A model generated the notes under the pieces. It worked only from the letters and a program-made list of their open reading frames with translations. It did no database searches and was not told the origin of the DNA. Positions 3,274 to 53,265 of a stretch of DNA of 64,000 nt are shown here, one piece after another. The DNA lies in assembly GCF_017348835.2 (NCBI RefSeq), contig NZ_CP072315.1; one strand, written 5' to 3'. Each line of letters begins with the position of its first letter. Within the stretch, counting starts at the first letter, position 1. The DNA is from Escherichia coli. Lineage in GTDB: Bacteria > Pseudomonadota > Gammaproteobacteria > Enterobacterales > Enterobacteriaceae. The position numbers and the translations under genes were made by a program.

Positions 3274-5664
3274 TTATGTTTGAGGGAATTCTATAGCAAA
3301 TGTGGCCGTGCCAGATTGACCACTTACAGCGGGAGTAACGGGATACGTGCGCTCTTCACCATTACCAAGATCCAGTGACAGCGATTTAGTTTCACCAGGC
3401 TGGACCGTAACTCCGGCAACCGTAACGCCGAACTGGGCATTTTTCTGAACAGTCAGGGTTCCGTTTAACTGTCCGGTAATGATAGAACCGTCCTGACGCC
3501 GCAACACACTGGTTCGGATGATGGCCAGCGGCGTGTTGTCCGTTGCTTTCAGTGCTACGGCTGTGGCCAGCGTCTTGAGATTATCCAGCATAATCAGATT
3601 CGCAGGCTGGTAGGTAAAATTAAGCGTTTTAGTGGTCCGGTTACCTGATTCGTCAATAGCCAGTGCCTCCAGATGATACATCTGTCCCGATTCGTCAGTG
3701 TTGGGGAAGATTCTGGGGTATTCCGGAATAAAGACATCCTTGGATAACGGCGTGAATGCCAGGGTGACCTTTTCAGAGTTAGGTCCACCAGCGAGCTGAA
3801 GCGATGTCAGGGAAGCATCCCCAGAGGCATCAGTAACGCTTATGCGAAGGTTCTCAAGCCCTTTAACCAGTTTTCCTTCTGCGTCTGCGCCATTAAAACT
3901 GAACGCGATAACCGGAAGCGTTGAGTCAATTTTCAGCGGTGCATTAAGCGTTTTGGTTCCGGTGTTTCCAACAAGATCCGTGGCAGAGACGCTAACCACC
4001 GTATAATCCCCGTCCGGTAGACCAGCGTATGAGAAGGTGGCGTTTTTGGTTTTATAATCGCTTTCACTGACGGTCACAGGCTTCAGCGTGAAAGGTTCCC
4101 CCCGGGCATTTTTAAGGGTGGCTTCGAAAACTTTGGTATCCCAGTAGCTGATGTTCCAGGCGTTGACGCGATCATTATCGGTGGCCGTCATAGTGATTGT
4201 CTTGGAGGCCTTGTTTACCTGAGCGACATTAACCACCGGTGGGTTGTTATCCCAGATAACCGTAAAATTACCAGCAAGCGCATCGAATATGCTGTCACCA
4301 TCTTTTCCCGAGTAAAGGTGCAGATACTCAAATCCTTTGTCACTGGTGTAGTTGAAGTTAACCGTCATCTCGCATGAACTTTGTCCGATAGGTATAGTGC
4401 AGAACCAGGCTGCATTTTTTACCGTTCTGAACTTTTGCACGTATGGTCGGGGTTCAGCGGTTACCTTTATGCGGCTAATGGTGGCGGTTTTAACGCTGAT
4501 TGAGGCCTGAGTTAACCACTCACTGGTATCACTCCGGTACATCTCTTTAGCCACTATCTTCGGGGCTATTTCCATCGCCGGGGCTGGAGTGAAGTTGAGG
4601 GAGTTATGATGAATTCGTCTTACTCCTCCTGCCAGAGTCTGGAATTCATGATAAGTATCCCCCACATTGGGATATATGTATTTGAAAGTATAAATATTAT
4701 AAGTGCTATCGGACGTCTGGAAATTCGAGTCCGCCCAGCCATATTTGGAACCGTTAACAGCAGTAAAGTCACTTTTTTTCCTTAATACCCGTACGGAAAT
4801 AGGGTTCTGGAAGACGGTCATGCCAGACTGATAAGTGACCCATGATCCGGTAGTGGCGTCCTGCACCTGGATGATATCGTCAGGCTTAACCCGATCAATT
4901 ACGCTTCGGCGGCTTAGTTCGATCCTGTTTCCCGCTTTGTCATAAAGGTAGATCCCCACTTTATATTCAGAGCGGTTTTCCGGTGCCAGGGCATTGCTGC
5001 TTGCGTCGGCGACTTGAACGGTTACGCTACCTTCCACTGTATTAATTTCCGCTGGCTTTTTACGCTCCACTCCAGCGGCATCGGTTATGAAATATTCAGC
5101 ATTAGCAAGCCCGGAACCTTTATCACTCAGTCCATTAAAGACCAGTGCCTGGACGCTGGCGTACTGCATACCGGCTGGTACTGAAGTGAAGATCGCTTCG
5201 CTGCCAAAGTTCCACCCGTTTCTCGTATAACTTATGGTACCCGTTGCCGGAGGCGTTCGGTCAATTGCAAGCGGGTAATCCTGCCGGGAGACCTCCTTCC
5301 CTTGCAAGTCGGTAATCACCTCTCTGAGGGTGAAGCTATCTTCTCCCATCGCTGGTACGGTCAGAGTCTTGCCGTAATAATCAAAGCCTGTCGAAGATGT
5401 GGTACGGTCATCTACGGTAACCAGGCTGCTTTTCGTGCTCCAGATGAGGCTCCCGTCACTTTTCAGCAGACTGAGCGTAATATAACGGTCCAGACCGGAA
5501 ATAACGGCAACGTCAAAGCTCGTTACCGGATTAATCCATACGGATGCAGGCGATACGGTCTTTTTAACGTTCAGGGTATCTTTAAAGCTGAATTCTGCGA
5601 TTTCAGCGGAAGCTCCTGCGCTGAAACCTGCAAATGCAATAAGCAGGGCTAGTTTGATTTTCAT
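3274..5664 (-). CDS. large secreted Ig-like/adhesin-like protein, ~800-aa paralog 1
   Basis: Start moved to the Met preceded by AGGAGA RBS (track start 5691); signal peptide MKIKLALLIAFAGFSAGASA; shares CxIPxGxxSC motif and C-terminal GLENLRI..LAGGP..NFTYQPANL module with ORFs at 9285 and 17587. Confidence 0.7.
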   Translation of the reverse strand: MKIKLALLIAFAGFSAGASAEIAEFSFKDTLNVKKTVSPASVWINPVTSFDVAVISGLDRYITLSLLKSDGSLIWSTKSSLVTVDDRTTSSTGFDYYGKTLTVPAMGEDSFTLREVITDLQGKEVSRQDYPLAIDRTPPATGTISYTRNGWNFGSEAIFTSVPAGMQYASVQALVFNGLSDKGSGLANAEYFITDAAGVERKKPAEINTVEGSVTVQVADASSNALAPENRSEYKVGIYLYDKAGNRIELSRRSVIDRVKPDDIIQVQDATTGSWVTYQSGMTVFQNPISVRVLRKKSDFTAVNGSKYGWADSNFQTSDSTYNIYTFKYIYPNVGDTYHEFQTLAGGVRRIHHNSLNFTPAPAMEIAPKIVAKEMYRSDTSEWLTQASISVKTATISRIKVTAEPRPYVQKFRTVKNAAWFCTIPIGQSSCEMTVNFNYTSDKGFEYLHLYSGKDGDSIFDALAGNFTVIWDNNPPVVNVAQVNKASKTITMTATDNDRVNAWNISYWDTKVFEATLKNARGEPFTLKPVTVSESDYKTKNATFSYAGLPDGDYTVVSVSATDLVGNTGTKTLNAPLKIDSTLPVIAFSFNGADAEGKLVKGLENLRISVTDASGDASLTSLQLAGGPNSEKVTLAFTPLSKDVFIPEYPRIFPNTDESGQMYHLEALAIDESGNRTTKTLNFTYQPANLIMLDNLKTLATAVALKATDNTPLAIIRTSVLRRQDGSIITGQLNGTLTVQKNAQFGVTVAGVTVQPGETKSLSLDLGNGEERTYPVTPAVSGQSGTATFAIEFPQT
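4765..4775. promoter_or_regulatory. palindrome site AAAGTCACTTT (dispersed family)
   Basis: 11-bp core palindrome read directly, inside Ig-like gene 1. Confidence 0.3.
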
Positions 5665-6224
5665 GGGTTGTCTCCTGATCAGGTTCCCCATGATACTTTT
5701 TCAGTGTTCGAGATCTTTTCGGGAAAATAGCTAATTTTAATGTTTTTCTTTTCTGCCCGGCGGGACCTGTTTTGTTCCATTTTTATCAGTGAATGTAATG
5801 AGACCGATTCGTCCACTGTTAACAGTGTAAAAGCGAGGTTGAAAGCCAGCTTTGAGAAGGTTTTCAATAGCTGAAAAAAAATCTTTTTTGAGCATTGGTT
5901 TCAAGATGGTTTTCCTTTTATGCCCGGTGCCGCCGGGACGGTGGCATTAAATATACGCCATGTAAGTAAATTAATTTTTACCCATTTGATTGTCAATACA
6001 AACAAAAAATAAACCATGTTTATTATTTTACCAGCGATGCTATTTTAAAGTCCGTCTAAAATAAAAAACCAAAAAGTTAAATTTGAAGCCATCCTTCCTA
6101 AATTCATTTCTTGCGCATATTAGCCCCTGCTTTAAGTATATAATTTTTGAAAAAGTTGTCTGGAGGTTATTAGCTCGTGCATCTGGATTGTTAATATAAA
6201 GCCAACACAGAAAAGGAAAACAAA

Positions 6225-6989
6225 ATGTATAAATTAGTATCTCCTCGTGAACTGACTGAGATTATTACCGGTTTACTGCTTAAACCTGAACTCCTTGGTG
6301 AGCTGGACTCACCAGAAAAGCATCGGATGTTTATGGCAGATTTAGGCCGGGTGGTGGCAGAACATTGTGGAGGTCTGGTAAACAGCGTCGTCTTGCCAGG
6401 AGCTGAAGTTACAGTGCCGGATGGGTTACCGCTTAACGGCCAGCCAGTACGTTATCTCGGAATCAAAGAGAGCATCCCTCACCTCCTTGTAGAGCCTGAT
6501 GCTTCCTTACCTTCGCTCGCTAAAAACGTCTGGATGTATGCAGATCCTGAAGGCTGGAAAGAACATTTTGGAGCTGAGGAAGACTGCCTTACTCATGAAA
6601 TGATGCAGCTGTTCCGTAAAGGTATCCAGGCTCTTCAGAAGGAGCATGATACCCCTGAAATTAGCCTCACACTTCAGGACTGGCGCCTGGAGGAGGAAAC
6701 ACTGAGAGAAGAGGACAGTCAGGCCTATCAGGTCAGCGTTACCGGCCAACATAACATCCACTGTGAAGTTGTTAACAAGGAAGGTAACCCCTGTTTTGGT
6801 GTCATGTTCGAAATCGATCAGGGTGTGCCTGCCTTACACATCAACACCGGCGGGGATATGTTGCTCCACATTCATTGCGCCCATAACGGACTCGTTCTGA
6901 CCCCTGATGCAAGCGGTCAGCGATTTGAGAAGGCTCCCGTTGACCGCTTCGCTTATAACAGCCCATCCCTGCTGTTGTCTGCCGACTAA
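6225..6989 (+). CDS. hypothetical protein (254 aa)
   Basis: Complete ORF after a long AT-rich intergenic region; no motif recognised. Confidence 0.5.
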   Translation: MYKLVSPRELTEIITGLLLKPELLGELDSPEKHRMFMADLGRVVAEHCGGLVNSVVLPGAEVTVPDGLPLNGQPVRYLGIKESIPHLLVEPDASLPSLAKNVWMYADPEGWKEHFGAEEDCLTHEMMQLFRKGIQALQKEHDTPEISLTLQDWRLEEETLREEDSQAYQVSVTGQHNIHCEVVNKEGNPCFGVMFEIDQGVPALHINTGGDMLLHIHCAHNGLVLTPDASGQRFEKAPVDRFAYNSPSLLLSAD

Positions 6990-13989: not shown

Positions 13990-15320
13990 GGACTTTAATG
14001 ACAGTGGTAGTGATGGATAGGCTCATTTCCATTGTCGTCATTTTATCGGACAAGCCTCTTCGTCCTACAGGTTTAAGCTGACAATGGTAGTGATTGGATG
14101 ATCTCACTACTGTTGTCACTCAGTTCTTTGAGCGGACCCTTCCCTCGGTTGGTCGGCATTAACAACGGTAGTGACTCGATTGGCTCACTGCCATTGTCAT
14201 CGTGTAAATGACGTACCTTATCAGCTCAGCTGAAAGCAATGACAACGGTAGTGACTCTAATTGCTCACTGCCATTGTCGTCGTGTCTATTGAGAGCCTTA
14301 TCAGTGCACCTGAAAAGCAATGACAACGGTAGTGATTCTAATGGCTCACTACCGTTGTCACCGTGTGTATTGAGAGGATGGTCCACTTAACTGGACGTAT
14401 ATGACAATGGTAGTGACTTTAATAGCTCACTACCATTGTCGGTGTGTGAATTGAGAGGATGAGCAGCTCAGCTGTACGTCCATGACAATGGTAATGACTT
14501 AATGAGCTCACTACCGTTGTCACCCTGTTAATTAAGAGGCTCATCTGCTCTTCTGGAAGGCTATGACAACGGAAGTGACTTGCTGGGCTCACTGCCATTG
14601 TCGCCGTATGAATTGAGAGGATCATCCGCTCTTCTGGATGGCAATGACAACGGTAATGACTTAATAGGCTCACTACCATTGTCACCCTGTGAATTGAGAG
14701 GATGATCTGCTTAACCAGACGGCCATGACAACGGTAGTGACTTTCTGGGCTCAATACCGTTGTCACCCTGTGAGTTAAGAGGTTGACCCGCTCTACTGGA
14801 CGGCCATGACAACGGTAGTCACTTTCTGGGCTCACTACCGTTGTCGCCATATAGAATGAGAGGAGCATCAGCTCAACTGAACGGCAATGACTACAGTAAT
14901 GAGCTGGATGAAGCATAACCATTGACATCTGGCCCAACCGGAAGCCGTATTCGCCAATCCAATCGAGATTCACAATGGCCGTGACTCGCCGCATTAAGTT
15001 CCGGTGTCCTCCTAAAGCTGAACGCACACTCGGAGGACAATGACAATGCCAGTAAGGTACACATCATTACCATTGTCACTATAGCTACCAGAGAAGCCGG
15101 GATTTGAATGTCGATGGTAGTGAGTGGGTCAACTCACTGCCATTGTCACCCCGTTACGATATTTTCCGTTGGATGTACTGGCCAATGAAGTAAAGCGTAG
15201 AAACCGGGTGTTAACAGGTGACTCAGGAGAAAGCGTTGAATTTCGCAATCTCGATCTACATAGGGTGGTAGAGAACAATGACAACGGTAATGACTTTTGA
15301 CTCATTACCGTTGACGTGAA
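13990..15320. repeat. tandem array of about 16 units of ~80 bp, each containing a 15-bp-arm palindrome (TGACAACGGTAGTGA / TCACTACCGTTGTCA); putative Rep-binding iteron / incompatibility array
   Basis: Period about 80 bp read directly; inter-palindrome segments are also conserved (CCTGTGAATTGAGAGGATGA); adjacent to the rep gene. Confidence 0.65.
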
Positions 15321-41949: not shown

Positions 41950-44900
41950 CTTATTTAACCCCCTTTATCGCCAATCTGTGATTTTCTAATGTTAGCCTAC
42001 AGTTCTAGGGCCCTTGCTCCCATGATGCGAATCCTTCCACCTAATAAAGATTAACGCCTCATTCCTGTATGCCGGTCTTACGACGCCAGTGCACGGACAA
42101 TTTTTGGTCATCACAAGGCCAGGCGGGAGATTTAATCAGGGCGTGGTGTTCCTTAGCAGCAGCTGCGGCACTGTAAGCCGAAGGCGGAATTAACTCCTTT
42201 ATCGCCATCTGGGGACGTCATTAGGGGTACCCCTTTTAACTTGCTCAGGACCATTAAGCTAAAATTCCGGATAGTGATTGACGTAAGATTTAGGCTAAGC
42301 AGGTAAAGTGATCCCCGCTCCCGGGGTGACCACTTTATACAAAAGGCCGATCGGAAGATTGTCCTTAGGGAAATATTCCTTTAACACAGCACGGGCACTT
42401 ACTGCCGCTGCCGGATTTAACCCCCTTAATCGCCAAACTGGGGTACTGTCCTGATGCTGGCCTTCAGTTCTGGGCTGGGTGGCTATCACTTCCTCCCATA
42501 ATGCGAAATGTAACTGCTGATACAGATTAACGTCATATTCCTGCGTGCCGGTCTGCCAACACCAGTGCACGGGCTTTTTTCGGTCATCACATTACCGGGC
42601 AGGAGATTTTATCAGGGCGTGGTGTGACTGAGCAGAAGCTGGGGCACTGTCAGCAGCTTGCAGATTTAACCCCCTTAATCGCCAAACTGGGATTCTGGTC
42701 TGATATTGACCTTCCGTGCTGGGCGGGGTTCGGTTTGCTAACACTTACTCCCATGATACGAAATGTGCCTGCTGATACAGATTAAAATCACATTACTGCA
42801 TACCGGTCTGCCGACACCGGTGCATGGGCGATTTCCGACGATCTCAAGAACATATGGGAGATTATATCAGGGAGAGTAGTATGCCTGAGCAGCATCTGAA
42901 GGCACTGTCAGCCGCTGTCAGATTTAACCCCCTTAATCGCCAAACTGGTGTTCTGTCCTCATGCAGGCCTTCAGTTCTGAGCTGGGTTGCTATCACTTGC
43001 TCCCATAATGCGAAATGTACCTGCTGATACAAATTAACGTCGTATTCCTGTATGCCGGTCTGCCGACACCAGTGCTCGGGCTATTTTCGGTCCTAACAAG
43101 ACCTGGCGAGAGATTTAATCAGGGCGTGGTGTGACTGAGCAGCAGCTGGGGCACTGTTATCCGCTTGCAGATTTAACCCCCTTAATCGCCACACTGGGGT
43201 TCAGTCCTGATAGTGTCCTTCCGTCCTGGGCTCGGTTGCTAACACTTGCTCCCATTGCGCCTGCTGATACAGATTAAAGTCACATTACTGCATACCGATC
43301 TGCCGACTCCGGTGCATGGCTTTTTCCGATAATCACAAGGACGGACGGGTGATTTTATCGTTGCATAGTATGTCTGAGCAGCATCAGAAGGCTCTGTCAG
43401 CCACTGGCAGATTTAACCCCCTTAATCTCCAAACTGGGATCAGTCCTGATAGTGTCCTTCCGTCCTGGGCAGGGTTGCTAACACTTGCTCCCATGATACG
43501 AAATGCGCCAGCTGATACAGATTAACGTCTCATTACTCCATGCCGGTCTGCCGAAACTGGTGCATAGCTTTTTTCGATATTCGCATGAACAGACGCTTGA
43601 TTTTTTCAGGTTGTAATATACCTGAGCAGCATCTGAAGGCACTTTCAGTCGCTGTCAGATTTAACCCCCTTAATCGCCAATCTGGGATTTTCTGATGTTA
43701 ACCTACAGTTCAAGGCCCTTGCTCCCATGATGCGAACCTTGCAACCTGATAAAGATTTAAGCTTCATTCCTGTATGCCGGTCTTACGACTCTAGTGCACG
43801 GGGACTATTTTCGGTCATAATAAGACCTGGCGGGAGATTTAATCAGGCGTGGTGTGACTGAGCAGAAGCTGGGGCACTGTCAGCCGCTGGCAGATTAAAA
43901 CCCTTTATTCGCCATCTCAAGACGTCATTATGGGTAGTCCTTTTAACTTTCTAAGGACCATTAAGCTTAAACTCCGTTTAGAGAATGACGTAAGATTTAG
44001 GCTAAGCAGGTTAAGTGATCCCCGCTCCCGGGTTGAACACTTTATTCATCGTACGAGCGAAAGATTGTCCTTCGGGAAATATTTCTTATACACCGCTCGG
44101 GCACTTACAGCCACTGGCGGATTTAACCCCCTTAATCGCCAAACTGGGGTACTGTCCTGATGCTGGCCTTCAGTTCTGGGCTGGGTGGCTATCACTTGCT
44201 CCCCTAATGCGAAATGTGTCTGTTAATACAGATTAACGTCATTTTCCTGCGTGCCGGTCTGCCGACACCAGTGCACGGCCTTTTTTCGGTCATTACATTA
44301 CCGGGCAGGAGATTTTATCAGGGCGTGGTGTTACTGAGCAGGAGCTGGGGCACTATCAGCAGCTTGCATATTTAACTCCCTTAATCGCCAAACTGGTGTT
44401 CTGTCCTCATGCTGGCCTTCAGTTCTGGGCTGGGTTGCTATCTCTTGCTCCCATAATGCGAAATGTATCTGCTGATACAGATTAACGTCATATTCCTGTA
44501 TGCCGGTCTGCCGACACCAGTGCTTGGGCTATTTTCGGTCATAACAAGACCTGGCGAGAGATTTACTCAGGGCGTGGTGTGACTGAGCAGCAGCTGGGGC
44601 ACTGTCATCCGCTTGCAAATTTAACCCCCTTAATCGCCAAACTTGGGTTTTGTCCTGATGCTGGCCTTCCGTTCTGGGCGGGGTTGCTATCACTTGCTCC
44701 CATCATGCGAAAAGTGCCTGCTGATACAGATTAACGTCATATTCCTTCATGCCGGTCTGCCGACACAAATGCACGGGCTTTTTTCGGTCCTTACAATACC
44801 GGGCAGGAGATTTAATCAGGGCGTGGTGTGACTGAGCAGCAGCTAGGACACTGTCAGCCGCTGGCAGATTTAACCCCCTTAATCGCCACACTGGGGTTGC

Positions 44901-45000
44901 CTCCTGAAGTTGGGTTTCAGTTCTGGGCTAGGTTGCTAACTCTGCTCCCATAATTCGTAGTGGGCCTACTCAAGAGATTAACACCTCATATCTTTAGACT
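41950..45000. repeat. tandem array of about 13 diverged direct repeats of ~235-257 bp (at least three unit subtypes, higher-order duplication)
   Basis: Anchor CAGATTTAACCCCCTTAATCGCCAAACTGGG recurs at about 41955, 42416, 42664, 42921, 43171, 43411, 43660, 44121, 44371, 44620, 44868; every unit contains TCGCCA and ATTTAAC. Confidence 0.8.
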
Positions 45001-45361
45001 GGACTGACGACAACGATTCACAGTTAGGAAACGTAAATCAGCACACCGGTGAGATAGATTTTAGGGTCTAAGCAAGAAATAGGGTAGGCGTGAAGATTCA
45101 TTAATGGAGCTCATAACGTCAAAGCGTAGAGAAGTCGACAAGAATCGTGGTTTAAAAAGAATGAGCATTAGGTATGGACTAGAGAGTCTGAGCTCTCATC
45201 TGCAAGTTAAGCTCACAAAAAATCATAAAAAAGTAAACAAACATTAGCTTAGGATTGAAACAAAGGATAGAATTGTACGTATAACAATGAAATGGACGCA
45301 TTATGCGTAAAGTTTACATATATGCGTAAAAGTCGGTTTTCAGTGCAAAAAGGTCATAACC

Positions 45362-46615
45362 ATGAATTTACTTGAAAAGATCGCCCTCGTTGGTCAGCGC
45401 ATGAAAAGCGAGCAGATTTCTCTTAAGGAATCTCTGATGGCTTCATCAAGAGTATCTGTTTCTGATGATAGTGTTGATGGTGTTGATAGACTGATCTACA
45501 ACCACTGTTTAAATAAAAAAAATCTCTCTGATTTTTTTGGGAAGTCACGAGTAACGTTCAATAAAATACTTTCGGACTTAGAAGAAAAAGAAGTTGTTGG
45601 TGCACCTATTTATCAAAACAAAAATCATCTTTACACCCGCTGGGATGTTCAAAAAATAATGGATGCCCTGGGTTATCCCAAGTACCGCGATCATTACTTT
45701 AGCAGAGCTATTGTTACTCAGAATCATAAAGGCGGTACAGGGAAAAGCACTACATCTGTAGCTTTAGCAGTAGCAGCTGCTTTAGATCTACAACTGAATG
45801 CACGTGTATTAATGATCGAATGGGACCCACAAGGTTCGATTGGAAGCAGCATGATTCAAAGTGTCTCAGAAGATGATGTCTTCCTTACAGCAATTGATGC
45901 AATCCTTGGAATTTATGAAGAAAATTCTGAGTATAAAAAATATTTAGATTCAGGATTCTCTGAAGAAGAAATCATCACTAATATGCCTTTTTCAACGCAT
46001 CTGCCAAACTTGGACGTGATAACGGCATTTCCGACAGATGCTCGTTTTAAAGATAAATACTGGCAATGTTCTAGAGAAGAACGAACGTCTTTGTTACTAC
46101 GTTTCAAGGAAGTTATCTTACCGGTACTGAAGCAGAACTATGATTTGATTATTATAGACACTCCACCTGAAGATTCACCTTTGATCTGGGCTGCTGACGA
46201 AGCGGCCGATGGGATTCTTGTCGCAGTGTCACCACGTGAATATGATTACGCCTCTACTACAGACTTCATGCTTACAATAAGTGAAAGGTTTAAACAATCA
46301 CCAAGTAAGGGCGATAATTTAAAATGGTTCAAAGTTCTTGCTGTCAATGTTGATGACAAAAGTCCATATGAAAGAATAGTTTTGGATAAATTAATCAGAA
46401 CTGTTCAGGACCTTTTGATGTCCGCTAACATAAAAAATTCTGAAGCATTTAAGGCAGCTGCTTCCAAAGGGCGTACAGTGCTTGATATCAAAAAATCAGA
46501 GGAACTTTGTTCCGCAAAGCAACTTGATGTCGCAGAAGAATCTGTATTACAGGTATATCAACAATTTATAAATGAAATAAAAAGTTTTTCAGCTAAGCAA
46601 GGAGTTAACGCATGA
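45362..46615 (+). CDS. parA: type Ia partition ATPase ParA (SopA/P1 ParA-like, with N-terminal extension)
   Basis: Deviant Walker A KGGTGKST; 417 aa. Confidence 0.8.
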   Translation: MNLLEKIALVGQRMKSEQISLKESLMASSRVSVSDDSVDGVDRLIYNHCLNKKNLSDFFGKSRVTFNKILSDLEEKEVVGAPIYQNKNHLYTRWDVQKIMDALGYPKYRDHYFSRAIVTQNHKGGTGKSTTSVALAVAAALDLQLNARVLMIEWDPQGSIGSSMIQSVSEDDVFLTAIDAILGIYEENSEYKKYLDSGFSEEEIITNMPFSTHLPNLDVITAFPTDARFKDKYWQCSREERTSLLLRFKEVILPVLKQNYDLIIIDTPPEDSPLIWAADEAADGILVAVSPREYDYASTTDFMLTISERFKQSPSKGDNLKWFKVLAVNVDDKSPYERIVLDKLIRTVQDLLMSANIKNSEAFKAAASKGRTVLDIKKSEELCSAKQLDVAEESVLQVYQQFINEIKSFSAKQGVNA

Positions 46616-47616
46616 GCGATGAGCAACATATCGGGAATGATAAATCTCGATATTTAAACGCACCAAAGCGGACAGAAGTCGGTCACCGTTCAGGTCTTGC
46701 GGGTTTGAAAACAGCACCTCGCATAAAAAAGTTATTCACTCTTCATAAGGGCCGAAGACTTGAAGCGGAACATGTGATTGTTCCAGCCCAGAGAGTGGAG
46801 AAGGAGACCTTAGTCCATCCAGCAAACCCACGAAATCAAGAAGCCCTTACAGATTATTCTGTTAGAGATATTCTTAAGCAGATTGAAGAAAGAGGGGTCG
46901 ATACCGAAGGGATCGCTGTAAAAAGAGATGGGGTTTATTTATTAATAGAAGGAAGTCGCAGACGTTTCTGCTGTATAAAGGCAGAAAAGGATCTCCCCCT
47001 GTGGGTACTACCGGATGAACTAACCGAAGATGATATAAATTCAATTATATCCGCAGCACAAACATCTCGAAAATTTTCATATAGAGAAGTTGGGTTTCAA
47101 TTTATCAAGAAAATGGAAGAAAAGGGATTTTCTACTAATGAAGAACTCGCAGCATATCTTGGGATTAGTCATGTATCGGTAGCCAAAAGAATCCAGGCGG
47201 CACGTATTGACGAAACATTGATCTCTTTATTCCCGGATTATGAAGGAATACCGAACTCCTATTATAGTCGCTTGTCTCGTTTACAGAAATATGTGCAAAA
47301 AAATCTATTTCCTTTAGATGAAGTAATAGATAATGTTAAAGAGGAAACAAAAGATTTAGACATTGGAGATCTCCAAGTTGCCCAAAAAGTTGTAATGGAG
47401 AAAATCACACAATCTGTGGAAAGTGTTTGTGAAAAATCTTATTCCACAAAATGGGAAACAAGTGATCTTATTACTTTTGATAACAAAGATAAGTATGCAA
47501 GAATCAGTAAAAACAATACTGGAAGAAAAATTCGCATTGAATTCAATAGGATAAGTGCGGGTTTTATTAAGGAGCTAGAGGAGTTCATAAAAGAAAAATT
47601 AAAAGTATCAGAATAA
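46612..47616 (+). CDS. parB: partition protein ParB (centromere-binding)
   Basis: ATGA overlap with parA; ParB box-like LLIEGSRRRF; 334 aa. Confidence 0.7.
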   Translation: MSDEQHIGNDKSRYLNAPKRTEVGHRSGLAGLKTAPRIKKLFTLHKGRRLEAEHVIVPAQRVEKETLVHPANPRNQEALTDYSVRDILKQIEERGVDTEGIAVKRDGVYLLIEGSRRRFCCIKAEKDLPLWVLPDELTEDDINSIISAAQTSRKFSYREVGFQFIKKMEEKGFSTNEELAAYLGISHVSVAKRIQAARIDETLISLFPDYEGIPNSYYSRLSRLQKYVQKNLFPLDEVIDNVKEETKDLDIGDLQVAQKVVMEKITQSVESVCEKSYSTKWETSDLITFDNKDKYARISKNNTGRKIRIEFNRISAGFIKELEEFIKEKLKVSE

Positions 47617-47621
47617 ATATT

Positions 47622-47646
47622 GAACTGCATCTTTATGATGCAGTTC
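47622..47646. terminator. perfect 10-bp-stem hairpin between convergent parB and downstream operon
   Basis: GAACTGCATC-TTTAT-GATGCAGTTC; AT-rich flanks. Confidence 0.4.
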
Positions 47647-47677
47647 ATATGATTTATATTTTTAATTTCTTGTTATA

Positions 47678-48067
47678 TTAATATGGGGTGTGCGCAGGTT
47701 CAGACATATAAGGTCTTAGTTCTATATGAACAGAAGCGCCATTCCCATCATTTACTACGTTTAAAGGTGCTTTGCCCGGCAATGACATAGTTGCAACGTC
47801 AGGTCCAGAAACAGCAAAATTATTTTCTGCTGAAGGCATTACTGTAAAAATCTTTATAGCAACATTTTCATGTCTAAATAAAGAAATCCCAAAAGTAGAA
47901 CCAGCTTCGGTATTGCTCACGTCCACAACCACAGGGGTTTTTCCTAGATATTCATTAGTTAGTATGTTTTTTACTAATGCCCCTTCCGGGACAGTATAGA
48001 TACGGTATGGATATGCTAAAACTGAGTGACAAAAACATAATAAAATAACAATTAATGTTTTTTTCAT
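47678..48067 (-). CDS. secreted protein (129 aa)
   Basis: Signal peptide MKKTLIVILLCFCHSVLA; last gene of the four-gene operon. Confidence 0.5.
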   Translation of the reverse strand: MKKTLIVILLCFCHSVLAYPYRIYTVPEGALVKNILTNEYLGKTPVVVDVSNTEAGSTFGISLFRHENVAIKIFTVMPSAENNFAVSGPDVATMSLPGKAPLNVVNDGNGASVHIELRPYMSEPAHTPY

Positions 48068-48585
48068 AGATTATCCTCATTCAAAAATAAAAGATATAAC
48101 TCTTGAAAATCGTGGTTATTAATTAGGTCCGCTTTTCCGGGAAAATCGTAACTAACAGAAAATAAAAGAGAAAGAGAATCTTTTCCTTTTGCTTTGGGAG
48201 AGATTCTGCTAAAAGCACGGTTAATAAACATAAGTTGATCTTCATTGTTGAAGCAAAGTCCAAGCATTCCAACCGTAGGAACTACGAATGTGCTTACGCT
48301 GCCTGGGGGCAAAAGTTGCTTACTACGGGCATTGTAAGCACAACGACTACCACCTAGCGTTAGGCCTGAAAGCTCAATAAAACTTCTGGTTCCATTCTTG
48401 GCGACAAGCCAAACATCAGTTCCTGAACTTTCGACACGTAAAGTAACTTTTCCGTCAGTAAAGGCCTCACTTTTATTGTATAGAATAGGGTCAAAACCAA
48501 CTGTCGGGAGTTCTTCGATTTTACTTTCTACTGACTGACAACCAGTCAGTAATGCAAACAATAAAAGTGTGATAACTTTAATCAT
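48064..48585 (-). CDS. lipoprotein (173 aa)
   Basis: Lipobox LLTGC; start/stop overlaps with neighbours. Confidence 0.55.
   Translation of the reverse strand: MIKVITLLLFALLTGCQSVESKIEELPTVGFDPILYNKSEAFTDGKVTLRVESSGTDVWLVAKNGTRSFIELSGLTLGGSRCAYNARSKQLLPPGSVSTFVVPTVGMLGLCFNNEDQLMFINRAFSRISPKAKGKDSLSLLFSVSYDFPGKADLINNHDFQELYLLFLNEDNL
48440..48451. promoter_or_regulatory. palindrome site AAAGTAACTTTT (dispersed family)
   Basis: Read directly, inside the lipoprotein gene. Confidence 0.3.
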
Positions 48586-49414
48586 CCCGCTTCCTTAGAT
48601 TGTTTTTGGCGCTGGTTATAAAAGATAATGATTCACCGGGGTAGAGAATTGTTTCTTTCGTCCAATAACGATAACCACCGAGGATATCTTTTCTTTTCTC
48701 AATATAAACCGGTTCAGAAAATTCTAAATGTTGATATTTCGGAAGAGATAAGATTTTATATTTTACTTGTCCAACTAAGAGGTAATTCTTCTCTTTAGGA
48801 TTGATGGTTACTGAATTACCAACACTTTGAGGTATGTTAAGTTTTTTTATATTTAGATCAGAATCGTCAGGAACGGACACTTGATCATTAGATGTCTTTC
48901 CGGGAAGAGTAAACCCTTTACCCTGATCCGGTCCAAAGATGGCAATTACATCTTTGTTGTTTCTTGTGATCGAAACGATAGCCTGAAGGGGCGTATTAGC
49001 AAGGTCATTTATAAACGATATAGTTATACTTGATTTAGGCTCGACCCAAATAATGCTTTTTCCGGATGTGCCTTCGCTTAATGCAATTTTTTCATTTAGT
49101 AAGATTTTATTTTTGGCAATGATATTATACTCAAGTTTCGGTATCACCATAAAAAGTGATTCTTTATTTGAAACATTCATGATTTCTAAGAAATTGGTTT
49201 TGGTCATGCTGGTCTTTAGAACAGGCCTATATTTACCATTTATAAACCACCTTCCGTTTATAAGCTCCGCTTTAGCAGATATAAGTGAATCACTTTTCTG
49301 AGCGGCAGAAGAAAAAGCATCTTTTCTTTGCTCTTTCTCTTGATGTGGTGCAGCTGCTGCGTGAAGATGCAAAAGTAATGTTGAAATTGAGATAATCTTC
49401 CATTTTATCTTCAT
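48578..49414 (-). CDS. secreted protein (278 aa)
   Basis: Signal peptide; overlaps both neighbours. Confidence 0.5.
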   Translation of the reverse strand: MKIKWKIISISTLLLHLHAAAAPHQEKEQRKDAFSSAAQKSDSLISAKAELINGRWFINGKYRPVLKTSMTKTNFLEIMNVSNKESLFMVIPKLEYNIIAKNKILLNEKIALSEGTSGKSIIWVEPKSSITISFINDLANTPLQAIVSITRNNKDVIAIFGPDQGKGFTLPGKTSNDQVSVPDDSDLNIKKLNIPQSVGNSVTINPKEKNYLLVGQVKYKILSLPKYQHLEFSEPVYIEKRKDILGGYRYWTKETILYPGESLSFITSAKNNLRKRDD

Positions 49415-50358
49415 CTTGTTACCTCAATGTTGTTTTCAATCGAATCGAGTTCTAACGGATAGGTTTTAAGTGAATAAAACTTGTTTGTTGTTTGTATTAG
49501 CTGATGACACAATAAAACTGGATTGTTCTTCATGATTATTTCTACTAATGTAAGTGCTGGTGAGTCAGTTGGCGGTATACCCGGAGCAACTATTACCTGG
49601 TCTTCTAATTTTGACATATAGAGTGATCCAGTATTTATATGTAAACAATTACCGATCAGTACTGGAAGATTGTTTTGAGTACGACCATGGGCTTTTCGAA
49701 TGCTGTTTACAGGATTCCTACCTAGGACCATAAGGTTGACGTCATTTATCATCATTGGTATTACGGCATGGTCCATACCGAATAGAAACTGGCTCTGAAA
49801 AATATTCACATTGGCATAGTTGAATGCTTGAAGCGCATTATAAGTATCAGTGAATGATGTGCGGATAGGGGCGTAATCAGAAGGGCAAACCCCAATTTTT
49901 ATATCGCCTTTGAGTAAAATCTGCATCATCGTACCAAGCTGGGTATTAAGAAGTTTTTTTACCTCTTCCTCTAAATAGTAACGATTTACAGCTTTATGCC
50001 ACTTTCCGCCCATTACACACCATCTCTCATTGAGGTATGTGCTGGGGTAAAATGTTCTCCGGTCTTTGTTTAATGGTAACAATTTTTTTAACATTTCTTC
50101 TCCGGCTCCGGCAGCTGAGAAATGCCTCACAAAACGTCCATCGAAAAAGCCACTGTTTATCGCCTTCATCAACTCTATGGGTTCCGGCCCATAGTCAAAC
50201 AAATTTCCAGTAGAGAAAATTACTATCTCTTCTTCTGGCTTTGTAACTGATTGAATCAAGTTGCACAGCGCAGAGTAATGTCCATGAGGATCTGCCAGAA
50301 AGAAAATCCTTCCCGAGAAGTTTGTAAGGTCTATAGTTTGGACGTGCTCAGCTGCCAT
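49411..50358 (-). CDS. calcineurin-like metallophosphoesterase-fold protein (degenerate motifs), 315 aa
   Basis: FFLADPHGHY (GDxHG-like) and GNLFDYG (GDxxDRG-like) motifs; first gene of the operon. Confidence 0.45.
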   Translation of the reverse strand: MAAEHVQTIDLTNFSGRIFFLADPHGHYSALCNLIQSVTKPEEEIVIFSTGNLFDYGPEPIELMKAINSGFFDGRFVRHFSAAGAGEEMLKKLLPLNKDRRTFYPSTYLNERWCVMGGKWHKAVNRYYLEEEVKKLLNTQLGTMMQILLKGDIKIGVCPSDYAPIRTSFTDTYNALQAFNYANVNIFQSQFLFGMDHAVIPMMINDVNLMVLGRNPVNSIRKAHGRTQNNLPVLIGNCLHINTGSLYMSKLEDQVIVAPGIPPTDSPALTLVEIIMKNNPVLLCHQLIQTTNKFYSLKTYPLELDSIENNIEVTR

Positions 50359-50513
50359 AAATTCCTCTACGTATGTTTACATCGATGATACGGTATTTCG
50401 AGCTATGATTTTTTTACATAAAGGCGTCATTTTGGATTCTAAGCCTAAGGACCTTTGTTACTTACTGGTAAAGGCTCCAGTCCTGGCTCTCAAACAGTTC
50501 ATACTTAGGATGC

Positions 50514-50524
50514 AAAGTAACTTT
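50514..50524. promoter_or_regulatory. palindrome site AAAGTAACTTT (dispersed family)
   Basis: About 200 bp upstream of parM in the divergent promoter region. Confidence 0.4.
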
Positions 50525-50721
50525 CTGATTATAATTGGCTCCTTTATAAACATGTTTACTTCATGAATACAGGATATTTAACGGTAATGTATTTAAAATG
50601 GAAGGATGCTGAAATAACATAGAGTTACGTATTTTTTTAATAGTGTTGATGTTGATAATAGGTCACCATTAATGTATAAAGTTAATATCTAATATGGTCC
50701 TATTAATAAAAGAGAGTTTTT

Positions 50722-51759
50722 ATGGCTGAACTATTAAAATCTGAAAGTCCTGTTTCACAATCATTGCAGGATATCACTGAAGCTTTAAAAATCGTTGTCG
50801 ATGATGGAAGTAAAGCTGCAAAACTGGTTTGTCTTAATGAAAGAAACGAATTAGTTCCCTTGCTCACACAAAATAGTTTTGTTCCAGATTTCCGTGTTCG
50901 CCATGAGGGTCTCAATCCTTTTAACTATCTTATTGATGGGCTGGAAAGGTTTTCGCATCACAGCGAATCTAGTAACTCACTGGAATCGACTGATGTATCT
51001 CACCAATACGATGAAATTAGCCGGTTAAATGTTCACCATGCACTTCATGCTTCTGGTTTAGTTCCTCAGGATGTTCACCTCTTTGTTACTTTACCTCTTA
51101 GCCAGTTCTATACTGCTTTAGGGGAAACGAATATTGAAAATATTCAGAGAAAAAAAGATAACCTGATGAAACCAGTTGAGCGTTATCTTGACGGTAAACG
51201 CTATTCTTTCAACGTTTTGTCTGTGACTGTTTTCCCTGAATCTTTACCAGCTGTGACCCGGGCAGATGAAATTGAGGATATTGCTTCATTTGAATCAAGT
51301 TTGGTAATTGATCTTGGTGGTACTACTCTTGATGTTGCAAGTATTACTGGGCAATTAGAACAGATTTCGAAAGTAAAAGGTTTTGACCGTATTGGTTGTT
51401 CTATTGTTTACGATGAGATCAGCAGGTATCTTGAATCTGAGAAACTGAATACGAGTAATGCTTACATTCATCATCTTGTTGATAATCGTCATGATAAATC
51501 AGCTTTGAAGGTTGCAGAGGACAAGCGTGACGGTGTTTTTGATGCGGTAAACTCTGCGGTACAGAAGTTGCAAAGTAAAGTAATCAGAGCGGTTACACAA
51601 GTCGAAGAGAGGCCTCATAATGTTTTCCTTGTTGGGGGAGGTTCATATCTCATCGAAACAGCTATTCGTAAACATTTTGAAACGGCTAAAGTTATCATGG
51701 TAGACAATCCGCAGTTCGCATTATCTTTGGCAATTGCTGATACTATTTATTCAGAATAA
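50722..51759 (+). CDS. parM: type II partition actin-like ATPase ParM/StbA
   Basis: AAAGAGAG RBS; phosphate-1 motif VVDDGSKAAKL, VIDLGGTTLDV, VFLVGGGSYLI. Confidence 0.75.
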   Translation: MAELLKSESPVSQSLQDITEALKIVVDDGSKAAKLVCLNERNELVPLLTQNSFVPDFRVRHEGLNPFNYLIDGLERFSHHSESSNSLESTDVSHQYDEISRLNVHHALHASGLVPQDVHLFVTLPLSQFYTALGETNIENIQRKKDNLMKPVERYLDGKRYSFNVLSVTVFPESLPAVTRADEIEDIASFESSLVIDLGGTTLDVASITGQLEQISKVKGFDRIGCSIVYDEISRYLESEKLNTSNAYIHHLVDNRHDKSALKVAEDKRDGVFDAVNSAVQKLQSKVIRAVTQVEERPHNVFLVGGGSYLIETAIRKHFETAKVIMVDNPQFALSLAIADTIYSE

Positions 51760-51770
51760 TGAGCTAGAAC

Positions 51771-52409
51771 ATGGCTAAAAACCCTATCTCAAATAAGGCA
51801 GATAACGACCGGATTCAGATCCGGTCTTTCTGGATATCCGAAAGAAAAGCACCCTATGTTTATAGTTTCTTGAAAAAAACAGAACTTTCTCATAGGGGTG
51901 ACCAACTGGATTTAATTAGGTCGGCTATTAGTACCGGGTTGGTATTGAATAATTTATTTCCTGACTTGGCAAATTTTATAAATGGTTTAAACGAAAGATT
52001 AACACTTGCAGATCTTAATAGGTTTCTGAATGATGGAAATACTATAGATACTGAACCTAAGCCTCCTATTAATGTATTGCTAGAGAATGTCTTAGATCAA
52101 AAGTTTAAGGAGTATTTAACACCTCTACAATTAGATAATTCAAAGCAGGATTCTGTTTCTGTAAAAGAAACCTTCCTTGTACAAAAGGAGCATGCCTGCT
52201 TTGGTGTGAAGATTGAAAATGAGGGAAGCGATACCTCTATACCATCTGAAAGCCCACTTTCTTCAGATGCATCCAAAATTTCAAAAGAAAAGTCCATTTC
52301 CGCTGTGGTGCCAGTGCTAGAAAAAGTATCGGATGAAAATCAAACCGCCTCCATAAGCATAAAATCTAAAGCTAAGGCAAACAAGCGACTGGCAACTTTG
52401 GCAAGATAG
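51771..52409 (+). CDS. parR: putative ParR/StbB-like partition adaptor
   Basis: Immediately downstream of parM; identity inferred from position only. Confidence 0.45.
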   Translation: MAKNPISNKADNDRIQIRSFWISERKAPYVYSFLKKTELSHRGDQLDLIRSAISTGLVLNNLFPDLANFINGLNERLTLADLNRFLNDGNTIDTEPKPPINVLLENVLDQKFKEYLTPLQLDNSKQDSVSVKETFLVQKEHACFGVKIENEGSDTSIPSESPLSSDASKISKEKSISAVVPVLEKVSDENQTASISIKSKAKANKRLATLAR

Positions 52410-52457
52410 GTGAGAGACAGTACAATCGACTTCTGAGTTCCAACTTGTCTTACCAGG

Positions 52458-52487
52458 AAAGCCAGCATACTTGCTGGCCTTTTTTTT
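52458..52487 (+). terminator. rho-independent terminator after parMR
   Basis: Hairpin GCCAGCA-TACT-TGCTGGC followed by TTTTTTTT. Confidence 0.65.
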
Positions 52488-52812
52488 GTTATAATAATTT
52501 CAGGCTTCACCTGGGTATGTAAAATTACTGTTAATGAAACGGTATTTTAGGTTAATTTGGGTGCTGTTACAGGAAGTGCGGATTTTTCCTAAATTTGTAA
52601 AAAACCTAAGAATTATCTTAATAAATCTGGTACTTAATTATTATTTTACTTATAAAGTCTCTGTGCTTTAATGGTTATGTAAGGATTTTTTGATACCCTT
52701 ATACCCGATGGACCTAAGGTCACTGACAACGATGTTCATGTAGAATCTTCGTTTCTGTAATCCCTTTTGTTCTTGTCCCAAATGTTTGATTATTATAATA
52801 AAGGCTGATCGA

Positions 52813-53265
52813 ATGCTATCTCGCAACTCACTAATACATGGTTTACGCCGAGACCAGTTAATCGGAGTTCTGACTATTTCAGAGTTTCCGGTAGTTATGG
52901 TAGAAAGCCACTTCATTCAGTCTGAGGTTATGGGAATAAAACCCGTAATTTTTAATATTGATGAGCTTCTTGTTTCTATATCCCCAATTTCCTCTCTTAA
53001 GTTCGATTGGGAGTGGGCCCCAGTTGATACAATACTCATTGAAGTTATCATTCCACCTGTAGAGTCAGACCTTGTAAGTGCAGAAAATGACTTCCTCCGT
53101 GATTCTGGTATCGGCCATATCCAGTGCGAGCCTGGCGGAGCATCAATACGACGTACAGTTACCTTCGTTGGTGGAATAACCGCTGATAACTTACTGTATC
53201 AGTTGAGGCTTATGTGCGTAAGTGCGTTAAAACTTTTAGGAGAGGAACTGGGGGATGAAGTCTAA
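52813..53265 (+). CDS. hypothetical protein (150 aa)
   Basis: ATG with AAGG RBS (track start 52786); no motif recognised. Confidence 0.45.
   Translation: MLSRNSLIHGLRRDQLIGVLTISEFPVVMVESHFIQSEVMGIKPVIFNIDELLVSISPISSLKFDWEWAPVDTILIEVIIPPVESDLVSAENDFLRDSGIGHIQCEPGGASIRRTVTFVGGITADNLLYQLRLMCVSALKLLGEELGDEV

What the first reader, a model, noticed from the sequence alone, without database searches (positions are those of the whole stretch)
47678..50358. Four-gene secreted and lipoprotein operon with a degenerate metallophosphoesterase, wedged between the two partition systems
parAB and parMR flank a convergent operon encoding a calcineurin-like phosphoesterase-fold protein with altered metal-binding motifs, two secreted proteins and a lipoprotein, with overlapping stops and starts. 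Candidate roles are entry exclusion, transfer regulation, or an envelope-associated function; it may correspond to poorly characterised transfer-determinant genes of IncHI plasmids.
Basis: inference. Interest (0 to 1): 0.4.

Follow-up and report, generated by a model that had tools for sequence, protein, structure and literature searches.

The report
IncHI plasmid Z operon (trhO–eexB–lipoprotein–trhZ)
The four genes are the IncHI2 copy of the already-named "Z operon" of IncHI conjugative plasmids, which encodes an entry-exclusion protein and two helpers of plasmid transfer, so the finding is real but already known.

Summary
Four minus-strand genes (50358..47678) overlap by 4, 8 and 4 nt. They lie between parAB and parMR and end at a bidirectional terminator hairpin.

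They are orthologues of R27 genes R0015–R0018: trhO, eexB, a lipoprotein gene, and trhZ. This is the "Z operon" of the Tra2 transfer region. Published work on R27 says the operon encodes the entry-exclusion system, that trhO and trhZ raise transfer frequency, and that HtdA represses it.

What I added:
- **TrhO** is a lambda-phosphatase-like protein that keeps only 1–2 of 7 catalytic residues across its family, so it is probably a pseudo-enzyme.
- **EexB** is predicted to be a secreted, copper-free tandem cupredoxin (multicopper-oxidase/SufI-like) protein. It is the fastest-evolving gene of the locus.
- **The lipoprotein** is an Ig-like β-sandwich restricted to IncHI-like plasmids.
- **Context:** in pKpNDM1-type plasmids the operon sits next to trhC and htdA with no partition genes, so it belongs to the transfer region, not to partition.

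Novelty: already known. Interest is low.

The parts
49411..50358 (-). trhO: cytoplasmic lambda-phosphatase/NinI-like metallophosphoesterase-fold protein with a degenerate active site (315 aa). Orthologue of R27 R0015.
   Evidence: ORF. Pfam Metallophos E 4e-5. PHROG NinI-like Ser/Thr phosphatase E 1.4e-7. Family profile against 1G5B E 6.8e-8. 72% identical to R27 TrhO. No signal peptide. The ATG and GAGG ribosome-binding site are conserved in 4 lineages.
48578..49414 (-). eexB (orf16; orthologue of R27 R0016): secreted 278-aa exclusion protein, predicted to be a copper-free tandem cupredoxin-like fold.
48064..48585 (-). orf17 (orthologue of R27 R0017): 173-aa lipoprotein with lipobox LTGC, Gln at +2 and a conserved Cys82/Cys111 pair. 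Predicted Ig-like β-sandwich.
47678..48067 (-). trhZ (orthologue of R27 R0018): 129-aa secreted protein with a signal peptide ending VLA|Y and a weak PEGA-like N-terminal domain. It is the most conserved gene of the operon.
   Evidence: ORF. 78% identical to R27 TrhZ. Annotated TrhZ in MF344581. PEGA E 0.0097, below the cutoff; 5 of 8 family members match weakly.
47621..47647 (.). Bidirectional terminator-like hairpin (11-bp stem) between the parB stop and the trhZ stop.
   Evidence: sequence shown.
50359..50721 (.). 363-bp divergent intergenic region between trhO and parM, which presumably holds the Z-operon promoter. In R27 that promoter is activated by TrhR/TrhY and counteracted by HtdA.
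   Evidence: Sequence. Partial conservation with R27 and two other lineages. The regulation statement comes from PMC7366339. No strong sigma-70 consensus was found on the minus strand here.

Best explanation
The locus is the IncHI2 orthologue of the R27 'Z operon' in the Tra2 conjugative-transfer region: trhO, eexB (orf16), orf17 (lipoprotein) and trhZ. It is one translationally coupled transcription unit.

Shown:
- Orthology, synteny and operon anatomy.
- Export signals on three of the four products.
- The degenerate TrhO active site.

Taken from the R27 literature:
- EexB is an exclusion factor found in the outer membrane. [quoted passage not shown]
- trhO and trhZ raise transfer frequency.
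- The operon is activated by TrhR/TrhY and repressed by HtdA.

Inferred here:
- EexB acts through protein-protein recognition at the cell envelope, using a copper-free tandem-cupredoxin scaffold like SufI/FtsP. Its fast-evolving C-terminal half would set exclusion specificity.
- The co-translated outer-membrane-type lipoprotein Orf17 is a plausible tether or partner for EexB.
- TrhO works as a non-catalytic (pseudo-phosphatase) binding or regulatory protein in the cytoplasm.
- TrhZ is a conserved periplasmic accessory of the mating apparatus.
For: Identity:
- Annotated TrhO/Orf16/Orf17/TrhZ in MF344581.
- R27 has the same four genes in the same place, at 72, 45, 62 and 78% identity.
- R27 gene names and the 8-17-fold co-induction of all four genes in an htdA mutant come from the supplement of PMC7366339.
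- EexB in the outer membrane, and its requirement in both donor and recipient, come from PMC11493245 and PMC8923210.
- The trhO/trhZ effect on transfer frequency comes from PMC11628540.

Belongs to transfer, not partition:
- In pKpNDM1-type plasmids the operon lies between htdA-like genes and trhC/traV with no par genes.

TrhO pseudo-enzyme, relative to lambda phosphatase residues D20, H22, D49, N75, H76, H139 and H186:
- Only D20 is invariant.
- D49 is replaced by Asn in every member.
- N75-H76 becomes Ala-Gly (Phe-Gly in the 304-aa L003 member; Phe-His in the pKpNDM1 type).
- H139 becomes Pro, Ser or Ala.
- H186 becomes Arg in most members.
- H22 is kept only in the IncHI1/IncHI2 forms and the closest (61%) homologue.
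- Sources.

EexB fold and evolution:
- Structure prediction and fold searches.
- No conserved His, Cys or Met.
- Lowest identity of the four proteins in every comparison.
- Highest dN/dS of the locus: 0.48, 0.40 and 0.27, against 0.01-0.16 for parA, parB, trhO and parM.
- 44 clusters at 90% identity, against 14 for TrhO.
Against: - No experiment on the IncHI2 genes themselves was found. All functional statements are transferred from R27 at 42-78% identity.
- The primary papers (Lawley 2003; Gunton 2008) were not held. Which R27 ORF is EexB rests on one supplementary table. The reported outer-membrane location would fit the neighbouring lipoprotein more obviously than a lipid-free secreted protein.
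- The location of eexA was not established.
- The reported trhO phenotype could be a polar effect on downstream genes; I could not check complementation.
- dN/dS for eexB is raised but below 1, so relaxed constraint is as good an explanation as diversifying selection.
- The structures are predictions from shallow alignments (31 and 12 sequences).
Confidence: 0.85

Rival explanations
1. The four genes are accessory components of plasmid partition or stability, because they lie between the ParAB and ParMR modules.
For: They sit exactly between two verified partition modules. The same arrangement is found in R27 and in the diverged contigs L003-L006.
Against: In pKpNDM1-type and related Klebsiella plasmids the same operon is flanked by htdA-like genes and trhC/traV with no par genes. 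In R27 all four genes are induced 8-17-fold in an htdA (transfer repressor) mutant, while parA and parB are unchanged. Three of the four products are exported to the envelope, which is not expected of segregation factors.
Confidence: 0.03
2. TrhO is an active Ser/Thr or diadenosine-polyphosphate phosphatase (it is annotated 'phosphodiesterase'). It would regulate conjugation by dephosphorylating a host or plasmid target.
For: It passes the Pfam Metallophos gathering score. It resembles lambda phosphatase, NinI and ApaH-like enzymes. Motif I (DPHG) is intact in the IncHI1 and IncHI2 versions.
Against: Five of the seven metal-binding or catalytic residues are replaced in every family member, and His22 is also lost in the more distant members. 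The replacement residues (GN, GAGE, GRNP) are themselves conserved, which argues for a selected non-catalytic role.
Confidence: 0.1
3. The exclusion factor is really the lipoprotein Orf17, alone or as an obligate pair with Orf16, and the 'eexB = R0016' label in the accessible table is shifted by one gene.
For: EexB is reported to be in the outer membrane. Orf17 has a conserved lipobox with a non-Asp +2 residue, the outer-membrane sorting type. Orf16 has neither a lipid anchor nor a β-barrel. The two genes overlap by 8 nt. Other surface-exclusion factors (TraT, Sfx) are lipoproteins.
Against: The only accessible gene table names R0016 eexB and lists R0017 merely as 'lipoprotein'. Orf16, not Orf17, shows the fast, non-synonymous-rich divergence expected of a specificity determinant.
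Confidence: 0.15
4. The operon is an anti-phage defence or anti-defence cassette carried in the plasmid backbone.
For: Metallophosphoesterase-fold proteins occur in several defence systems (background knowledge). The operon holds several proteins with no assigned function.
Against: None of the four proteins matches PADLOC-DB at E up to 0.1. The family is restricted to IncHI-like transfer regions. It is co-regulated with tra genes.
Confidence: 0.02

Closest known systems
Z operon of IncHI1 plasmid R27 (R0015 trhO, R0016 eexB, R0017 lipoprotein, R0018 trhZ; Lawley et al. 2003, Gunton et al. 2008, Gibert et al. 2020)
   Same: Same four genes in the same order, with near-identical lengths (315/323, 278/279, 173/173, 129/130 aa) and overlapping junctions. 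Same position between parMR and parAB.
   Different: Identity is 72, 45, 62 and 78%. EexB and the C-terminal tail of Orf17 are strongly diverged, so IncHI2 may form a separate exclusion group. That has not been tested.
Bacteriophage lambda Ser/Thr phosphatase (NinI, PDB 1G5B) and E. coli PrpA/PrpB
   Same: TrhO shares the fold family and motif spacing. Profile E 6.8e-8 to 1G5B, PHROG NinI-like E 1.4e-7, NCBIfam PrpA/B-type weak hits.
   Different: TrhO lacks D49, N75, H76, H139 and H186, and in many members H22. It also carries a roughly 90-aa C-terminal extension. It should not be filed as an active phosphatase.
Multicopper oxidases (CueO and laccases) and the copper-free homologue SufI/FtsP (PDB 2UXT)
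   Different: EexB has two domains, not three. No copper ligands are conserved. There is no significant sequence similarity: Pfam Cu-oxidase scores 15 bits against a cutoff of 21, and the family profile finds nothing in PDB sequences.
Surface-exclusion lipoproteins TraT (F) and Sfx (IncC)
   Same: They have the same functional category as reported for EexB: outer-membrane-associated exclusion. Orf17 shares the lipoprotein character.
   Different: There is no homology. hhalign probability is 0.2% (EexB) and 4% (Orf17) against Sfx, with signal-peptide matches only. There is no Pfam TraT hit. Sfx acts only in the recipient and targets TraN, whereas R27 EexB is reported to be needed on both sides.

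Membership tests
IncHI Tra2 Z operon (trhO-eexB-orf17-trhZ) | Each of the four proteins is orthologous to R27 R0015-R0018 | tested here: met
   BLASTP gives 72, 45, 62 and 78% identity at E 1e-70 or better. An IncHI2 record annotates them TrhO/Orf16/Orf17/TrhZ.
IncHI Tra2 Z operon (trhO-eexB-orf17-trhZ) | Conserved gene order, sizes and overlapping junctions, located in Tra2 next to the htdA side and the trhC side | tested here: met
   The par modules are present in the IncHI1, IncHI2 and L004 types and absent in the pKpNDM1 type.
IncHI Tra2 Z operon (trhO-eexB-orf17-trhZ) | Co-transcription and control by TrhR/TrhY and HtdA | not testable with these tools
   Only R27 array data are available. 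A terminator hairpin and a single upstream intergenic region are consistent with this.
IncHI Tra2 Z operon (trhO-eexB-orf17-trhZ) | Entry-exclusion phenotype and effect on transfer frequency | not testable with these tools
   Literature on R27 only.
Calcineurin-like/PPP metallophosphoesterase (Pfam PF00149; lambda phosphatase type) | Sequence match above the curated threshold | tested here: met
   24.4 bits against a cutoff of 21.5. Family profile against 1G5B E 6.8e-8.
Calcineurin-like/PPP metallophosphoesterase (Pfam PF00149; lambda phosphatase type) | Complete dinuclear-metal/catalytic motif set: DxH, GD, GNH(E/D), H, GH | tested here: not met
   The motifs read DPHG, GN, GAGE, P/S and GR. 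Only the first Asp is invariant across 15 family members.
Multicopper oxidase / cupredoxin superfamily (EexB) | Tandem Greek-key cupredoxin fold | tested here: met
Multicopper oxidase / cupredoxin superfamily (EexB) | Copper ligands (HxH, HCH motifs) and a Pfam Cu-oxidase match above threshold | tested here: not met
   No conserved His, Cys or Met column. PF00394 scores 15 bits against a cutoff of 21.
Bacterial lipoprotein (Orf17) | Signal peptide with lipobox [LVI][ASTVI][GAS]C | tested here: met
   LTGC, VTGC, LSGC or LTAC aligned at the invariant Cys (position 16 or 17) in all 8 lineages, with a non-Asp residue at +2.
PEGA domain (TrhZ) | Pfam PF08308 match above the gathering score | tested here: inconclusive
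   16.2 bits against a cutoff of 20.8. 5 of 8 family members match weakly, best E 0.0034. No structure was predicted.
TraT / Sfx surface-exclusion lipoproteins | Sequence or profile homology to TraT (PF05818) or to IncC Sfx | tested here: not met
   No Pfam TraT hit. hhalign probability 0.2% and 4% against Sfx.
Known anti-phage defence systems (PADLOC-DB) | Any component matching a defence-system model | tested here: not met
   No hit at E up to 0.1 for any of the four proteins.

The most novel reading that the evidence does not exclude
The Z operon may encode an unrecognised kind of self-recognition exclusion device. A copper-free multicopper-oxidase-like protein (EexB) would be held at the outer membrane by its co-translated lipoprotein partner Orf17. 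It would recognise the same protein on the mating partner, with the fast-evolving C-terminal cupredoxin domain defining exclusion groups. A conserved cytoplasmic pseudo-phosphatase (TrhO) and the periplasmic TrhZ would couple the device to the type IV secretion machinery. Neither the fold assignment nor the pseudo-enzyme status appears in the papers I could read.
Probability: 0.15. Interest if true: 0.45.

Novelty: already known. Interest (0 to 1): 0.15.

Why it matters
IncHI2 plasmids are major carriers of mcr-1, mcr-9 and carbapenemase genes. Their exclusion and transfer-modulating genes shape which plasmids can coexist and how fast they spread. The locus itself is a named, partly characterised operon, so the finding adds no new system.

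The modest added value is in structure and evolution:
- TrhO looks like a dead phosphatase although it is annotated 'phosphodiesterase'.
- EexB is predicted to be a copper-free tandem cupredoxin, unrelated to TraT or Sfx.
- eexB is the divergence hot spot of the locus, which suggests allelic exclusion groups within IncHI2 that could be tested directly.

Tried and rejected
- **Primary papers not held.** I tried to read Lawley 2003 (PMC145343, PMID 12511505), Gunton 2008 (by DOI), Sherburne 2000 (PMC105367) and Humbert 2019 (PMC6482922); none is held. I therefore could not confirm from the source which ORF is eexA or eexB, nor the complementation data. Further literature searches for eexA/eexB gave only citations.
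- **Original records absent.** The GenBank records AF250878, BX664015 and KF551948 are not in the collections.
- **No specific family for the last three proteins.** NCBIfam, PADLOC and PHROGs gave no significant family match for Orf16, Orf17 or TrhZ.
- **No RNA family.** Rfam found nothing in 45000-53000.
- **No sequence link for EexB.** The EexB family profile found nothing among PDB sequences.
- **AFDB50 unavailable.** The AFDB50 fold library could not be searched.
- **No homology to Sfx.** Homology of EexB or Orf17 to IncC Sfx was tested and rejected.
- **No clear promoter.** The sigma-70 consensus scan did not find a convincing promoter upstream of trhO.
- **Readings rejected.** I rejected the partition-accessory and defence-system readings; see the rival explanations.
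Full report
**1. What is in the sequence**

| Coordinates | Length |
|---|---|
| 50358..49411 | 315 aa |
| 49414..48578 | 278 aa |
| 48585..48064 | 173 aa |
| 48067..47678 | 129 aa |

- Their junctions overlap by 4, 8 and 4 nt, the usual sign of translational coupling.
- The first ATG is preceded by a GAGG ribosome-binding site. Both are conserved in four diverged lineages.
- An 11-bp-stem hairpin at 47621-47647 scores as a terminator on both strands. It lies between the trhZ stop and the parB stop.
- Upstream on the + strand are ParA (AAA_31/CbiA) and ParB (PF08775). Downstream are ParM (StbA_N + ParM_N, E 1e-66) and the ORF annotated ParR in a related record (no Pfam hit).

**2. Identity**

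- The 3.3-kb segment matches 1126 PLSDB plasmids at 95% or higher identity. They come from Escherichia, Salmonella, Enterobacter and Klebsiella; the two records examined are typed IncHI2A, MOBH, MPF_F.
- One record (MF344581) annotates the four genes as IncHI conjugative transfer proteins TrhO, Orf16, Orf17 and TrhZ.
- The IncHI1 prototype R27 has the same four genes in the same place between parM and parB. Identities are 72, 45, 62 and 78%.
- The supplementary gene table of Gibert et al. 2020 (PMC7366339) lists R0015 as trhO (Z) 'phosphodiesterase', R0016 as eexB (Z) 'exclusion protein', R0017 as 'lipoprotein (Z)' and R0018 as trhZ (Z). All four are induced 8-17-fold in an htdA mutant at 25 °C, while parA and parB do not change.
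[quoted passage not shown] It says the operon is activated by TrhR/TrhY and counteracted by HtdA.
- A review citing Lawley et al. 2003 states that trhO and trhZ increase transfer frequency.
- Two later papers summarise Gunton et al. 2008. EexB localises to the outer membrane, and EexA and EexB are needed in both donor and recipient for exclusion.

**3. The operon belongs to the transfer region, not to partition**

- Diverged IncHI-like contigs (TrhO 45-57% identical) keep the four genes with the same order and sizes. Their context is the same: parM, a parR-like gene and htdA/F/K-like genes on one side, and parB and parA on the other where the contig extends that far (L004).
- In pKpNDM1-type and related Klebsiella/Raoultella plasmids (22-38% identity) the same operon lies between htdA-like genes and trhC/traV. 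No partition genes lie beside it.
- Being 'wedged between the two partition systems' is thus a feature of the IncHI1/IncHI2 lineages, not of the operon.

**4. TrhO**

- It has no signal peptide.
- It passes Pfam Metallophos, matches the PHROG NinI-like phosphatase family (E 1.4e-7) and matches lambda phosphatase 1G5B (single sequence E 0.0017; family profile E 6.8e-8).
- I aligned 15 family members with lambda phosphatase.

| Lambda phosphatase residue | State in the TrhO family |
|---|---|
| D20 | Invariant |
| H22 | Kept only in the IncHI1/IncHI2 forms and the closest (61%) homologue; Tyr, Phe or Cys elsewhere |
| D49 | Asn in every member (GNLFDYGP) |
| N75-H76 | Ala-Gly (GAGE); Phe-Gly in the 304-aa L003 member; Phe-His in the pKpNDM1 type |
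| H139 | Pro, Ser or Ala |
| H186 | Arg in most members |

- A dinuclear metal centre cannot be formed from what remains, yet the substitute residues are themselves conserved.
- TrhO is therefore best read as a pseudo-phosphatase retained for a non-catalytic role. This is an inference. It contradicts the 'phosphodiesterase' label but not any experiment I could find.

**5. EexB (orf16)**

- Every lineage has a hydrophobic N-terminal signal sequence followed by a variable linker.
- With a 31-sequence alignment, AlphaFold2 gives pLDDT 79 and pTM 0.74. The model has two all-β domains at about 44-162 and 185-277.
- A sub-threshold Pfam Cu-oxidase hit points the same way.
- No His, Cys or Met column is conserved, and a sequence profile finds nothing in the PDB.
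- I read it as a copper-free tandem cupredoxin scaffold, not an oxidase. It is unrelated to IncC Sfx, and no Pfam TraT match was found.
- EexB is the least conserved of the four proteins at every depth:

| Comparison | EexB identity | Other three proteins |
|---|---|---|
| The other main IncHI2 lineage (L010) | 95% | 97-99.7% |
| L012 | 87% | 97-100% |
| L013 | 78% | 89-94% |
| R27 | 42-45% | 57-78% |
| pKpNDM1 type | about 22% | 25-38% |

- Its dN/dS is 0.48, 0.40 and 0.27, against 0.01-0.16 for parA, parB, trhO and parM. The C-terminal half reaches 0.82 in the L012 comparison.
- It forms 44 clusters at 90% identity, against 14 for TrhO.
- This fits a specificity determinant but does not prove positive selection.

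**6. Orf17 and TrhZ**

- Orf17 has a lipobox in all eight lineages, a non-Asp residue at +2, and an invariant Cys82/Cys111 pair.
- An exhaustive profile search of 1.84 billion representatives found only 21 proteins, so the family is confined to IncHI-like elements.
- TrhZ has a classical A-x-A signal-peptide cleavage site. Its mature part is identical between the two main IncHI2 lineages.
- TrhZ matches the PEGA domain only below threshold.

**7. Mechanism**

- *Shown here:* orthology, anatomy, export signals, the degenerate active site, the absence of copper ligands and the divergence pattern.
- *Taken from the R27 literature:* exclusion by EexB acting on both mating partners, stimulation of transfer by trhO and trhZ, and HtdA/TrhRY control.
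- *Inferred:* EexB mediates protein-protein recognition in the envelope. Orf17, which overlaps eexB by 8 nt and is of the outer-membrane sorting type, may tether or partner it. TrhO acts without catalysis.
- *Open ambiguity:* the outer-membrane location reported for EexB would suit Orf17 better than Orf16. The one accessible table could be shifted by a gene. I give that 0.15.

**8. Verdict**

The new elements are secondary annotations: the pseudo-phosphatase reading, the cupredoxin-like fold prediction, the eexB divergence hot spot, and the operon's independence from the par modules. Interest is low.

Noticed in passing
window 42404-44982: A tandem array of 10.5 copies of a 249-bp unit (71% matches) lies just upstream of parA. 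Its GC content is about 0.50, against about 0.37 in the neighbouring genes. It produces the series of similar small ORFs on both strands in the ORF list. It could be centromere or incompatibility repeats, but this was not examined.
   Followed up: no
L002 (R27) 15185-15208 vs window 50358: The RefSeq start of R27 TrhO (323 aa) lies 8 codons upstream of the ATG that is conserved, together with its GAGG ribosome-binding site, in four lineages. The 315-aa start is probably the real one.
   Followed up: partly
window 51771-52409 (parR): ParR diverges as fast as EexB: 42% identity to R27 and 78% in L013, while ParM stays at 80-96%. In some IncHI2 plasmids parR is interrupted or truncated by IS elements, for example MF344581 and AP025852.
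   Followed up: no
L007-L009 (pKpNDM1-type plasmids), about 4000-6500 in each locus: The Z operon is present but directly flanked by htdA-like genes and trhC/traV. Neither the ParAB nor the ParMR module lies beside it.
   Followed up: yes
protein P0174 (818 aa, from the representative search): An unrelated long protein carries seven repeats of a roughly 35-residue motif (…VSTMVTPQDSQLLGLCFPNANDxxFVSYNNIS…). The motif resembles residues 96-131 of the Orf17 lipoprotein around its invariant LGLC. Its significance is unknown.
   Followed up: no
PLSDB hit H1 (NZ_MW025965), matching window 47400-50700: In this otherwise 100%-identical Salmonella plasmid the segment is split into two pieces by an IS3-family transposase insertion, so the operon is disrupted in some natural isolates.
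   Followed up: no
window 50405-50566 (+): A 53-aa ORF in the trhO-parM intergenic region is annotated as a hypothetical protein in MF344581. The region is only patchily conserved between lineages, so the ORF is probably spurious.
   Followed up: partly
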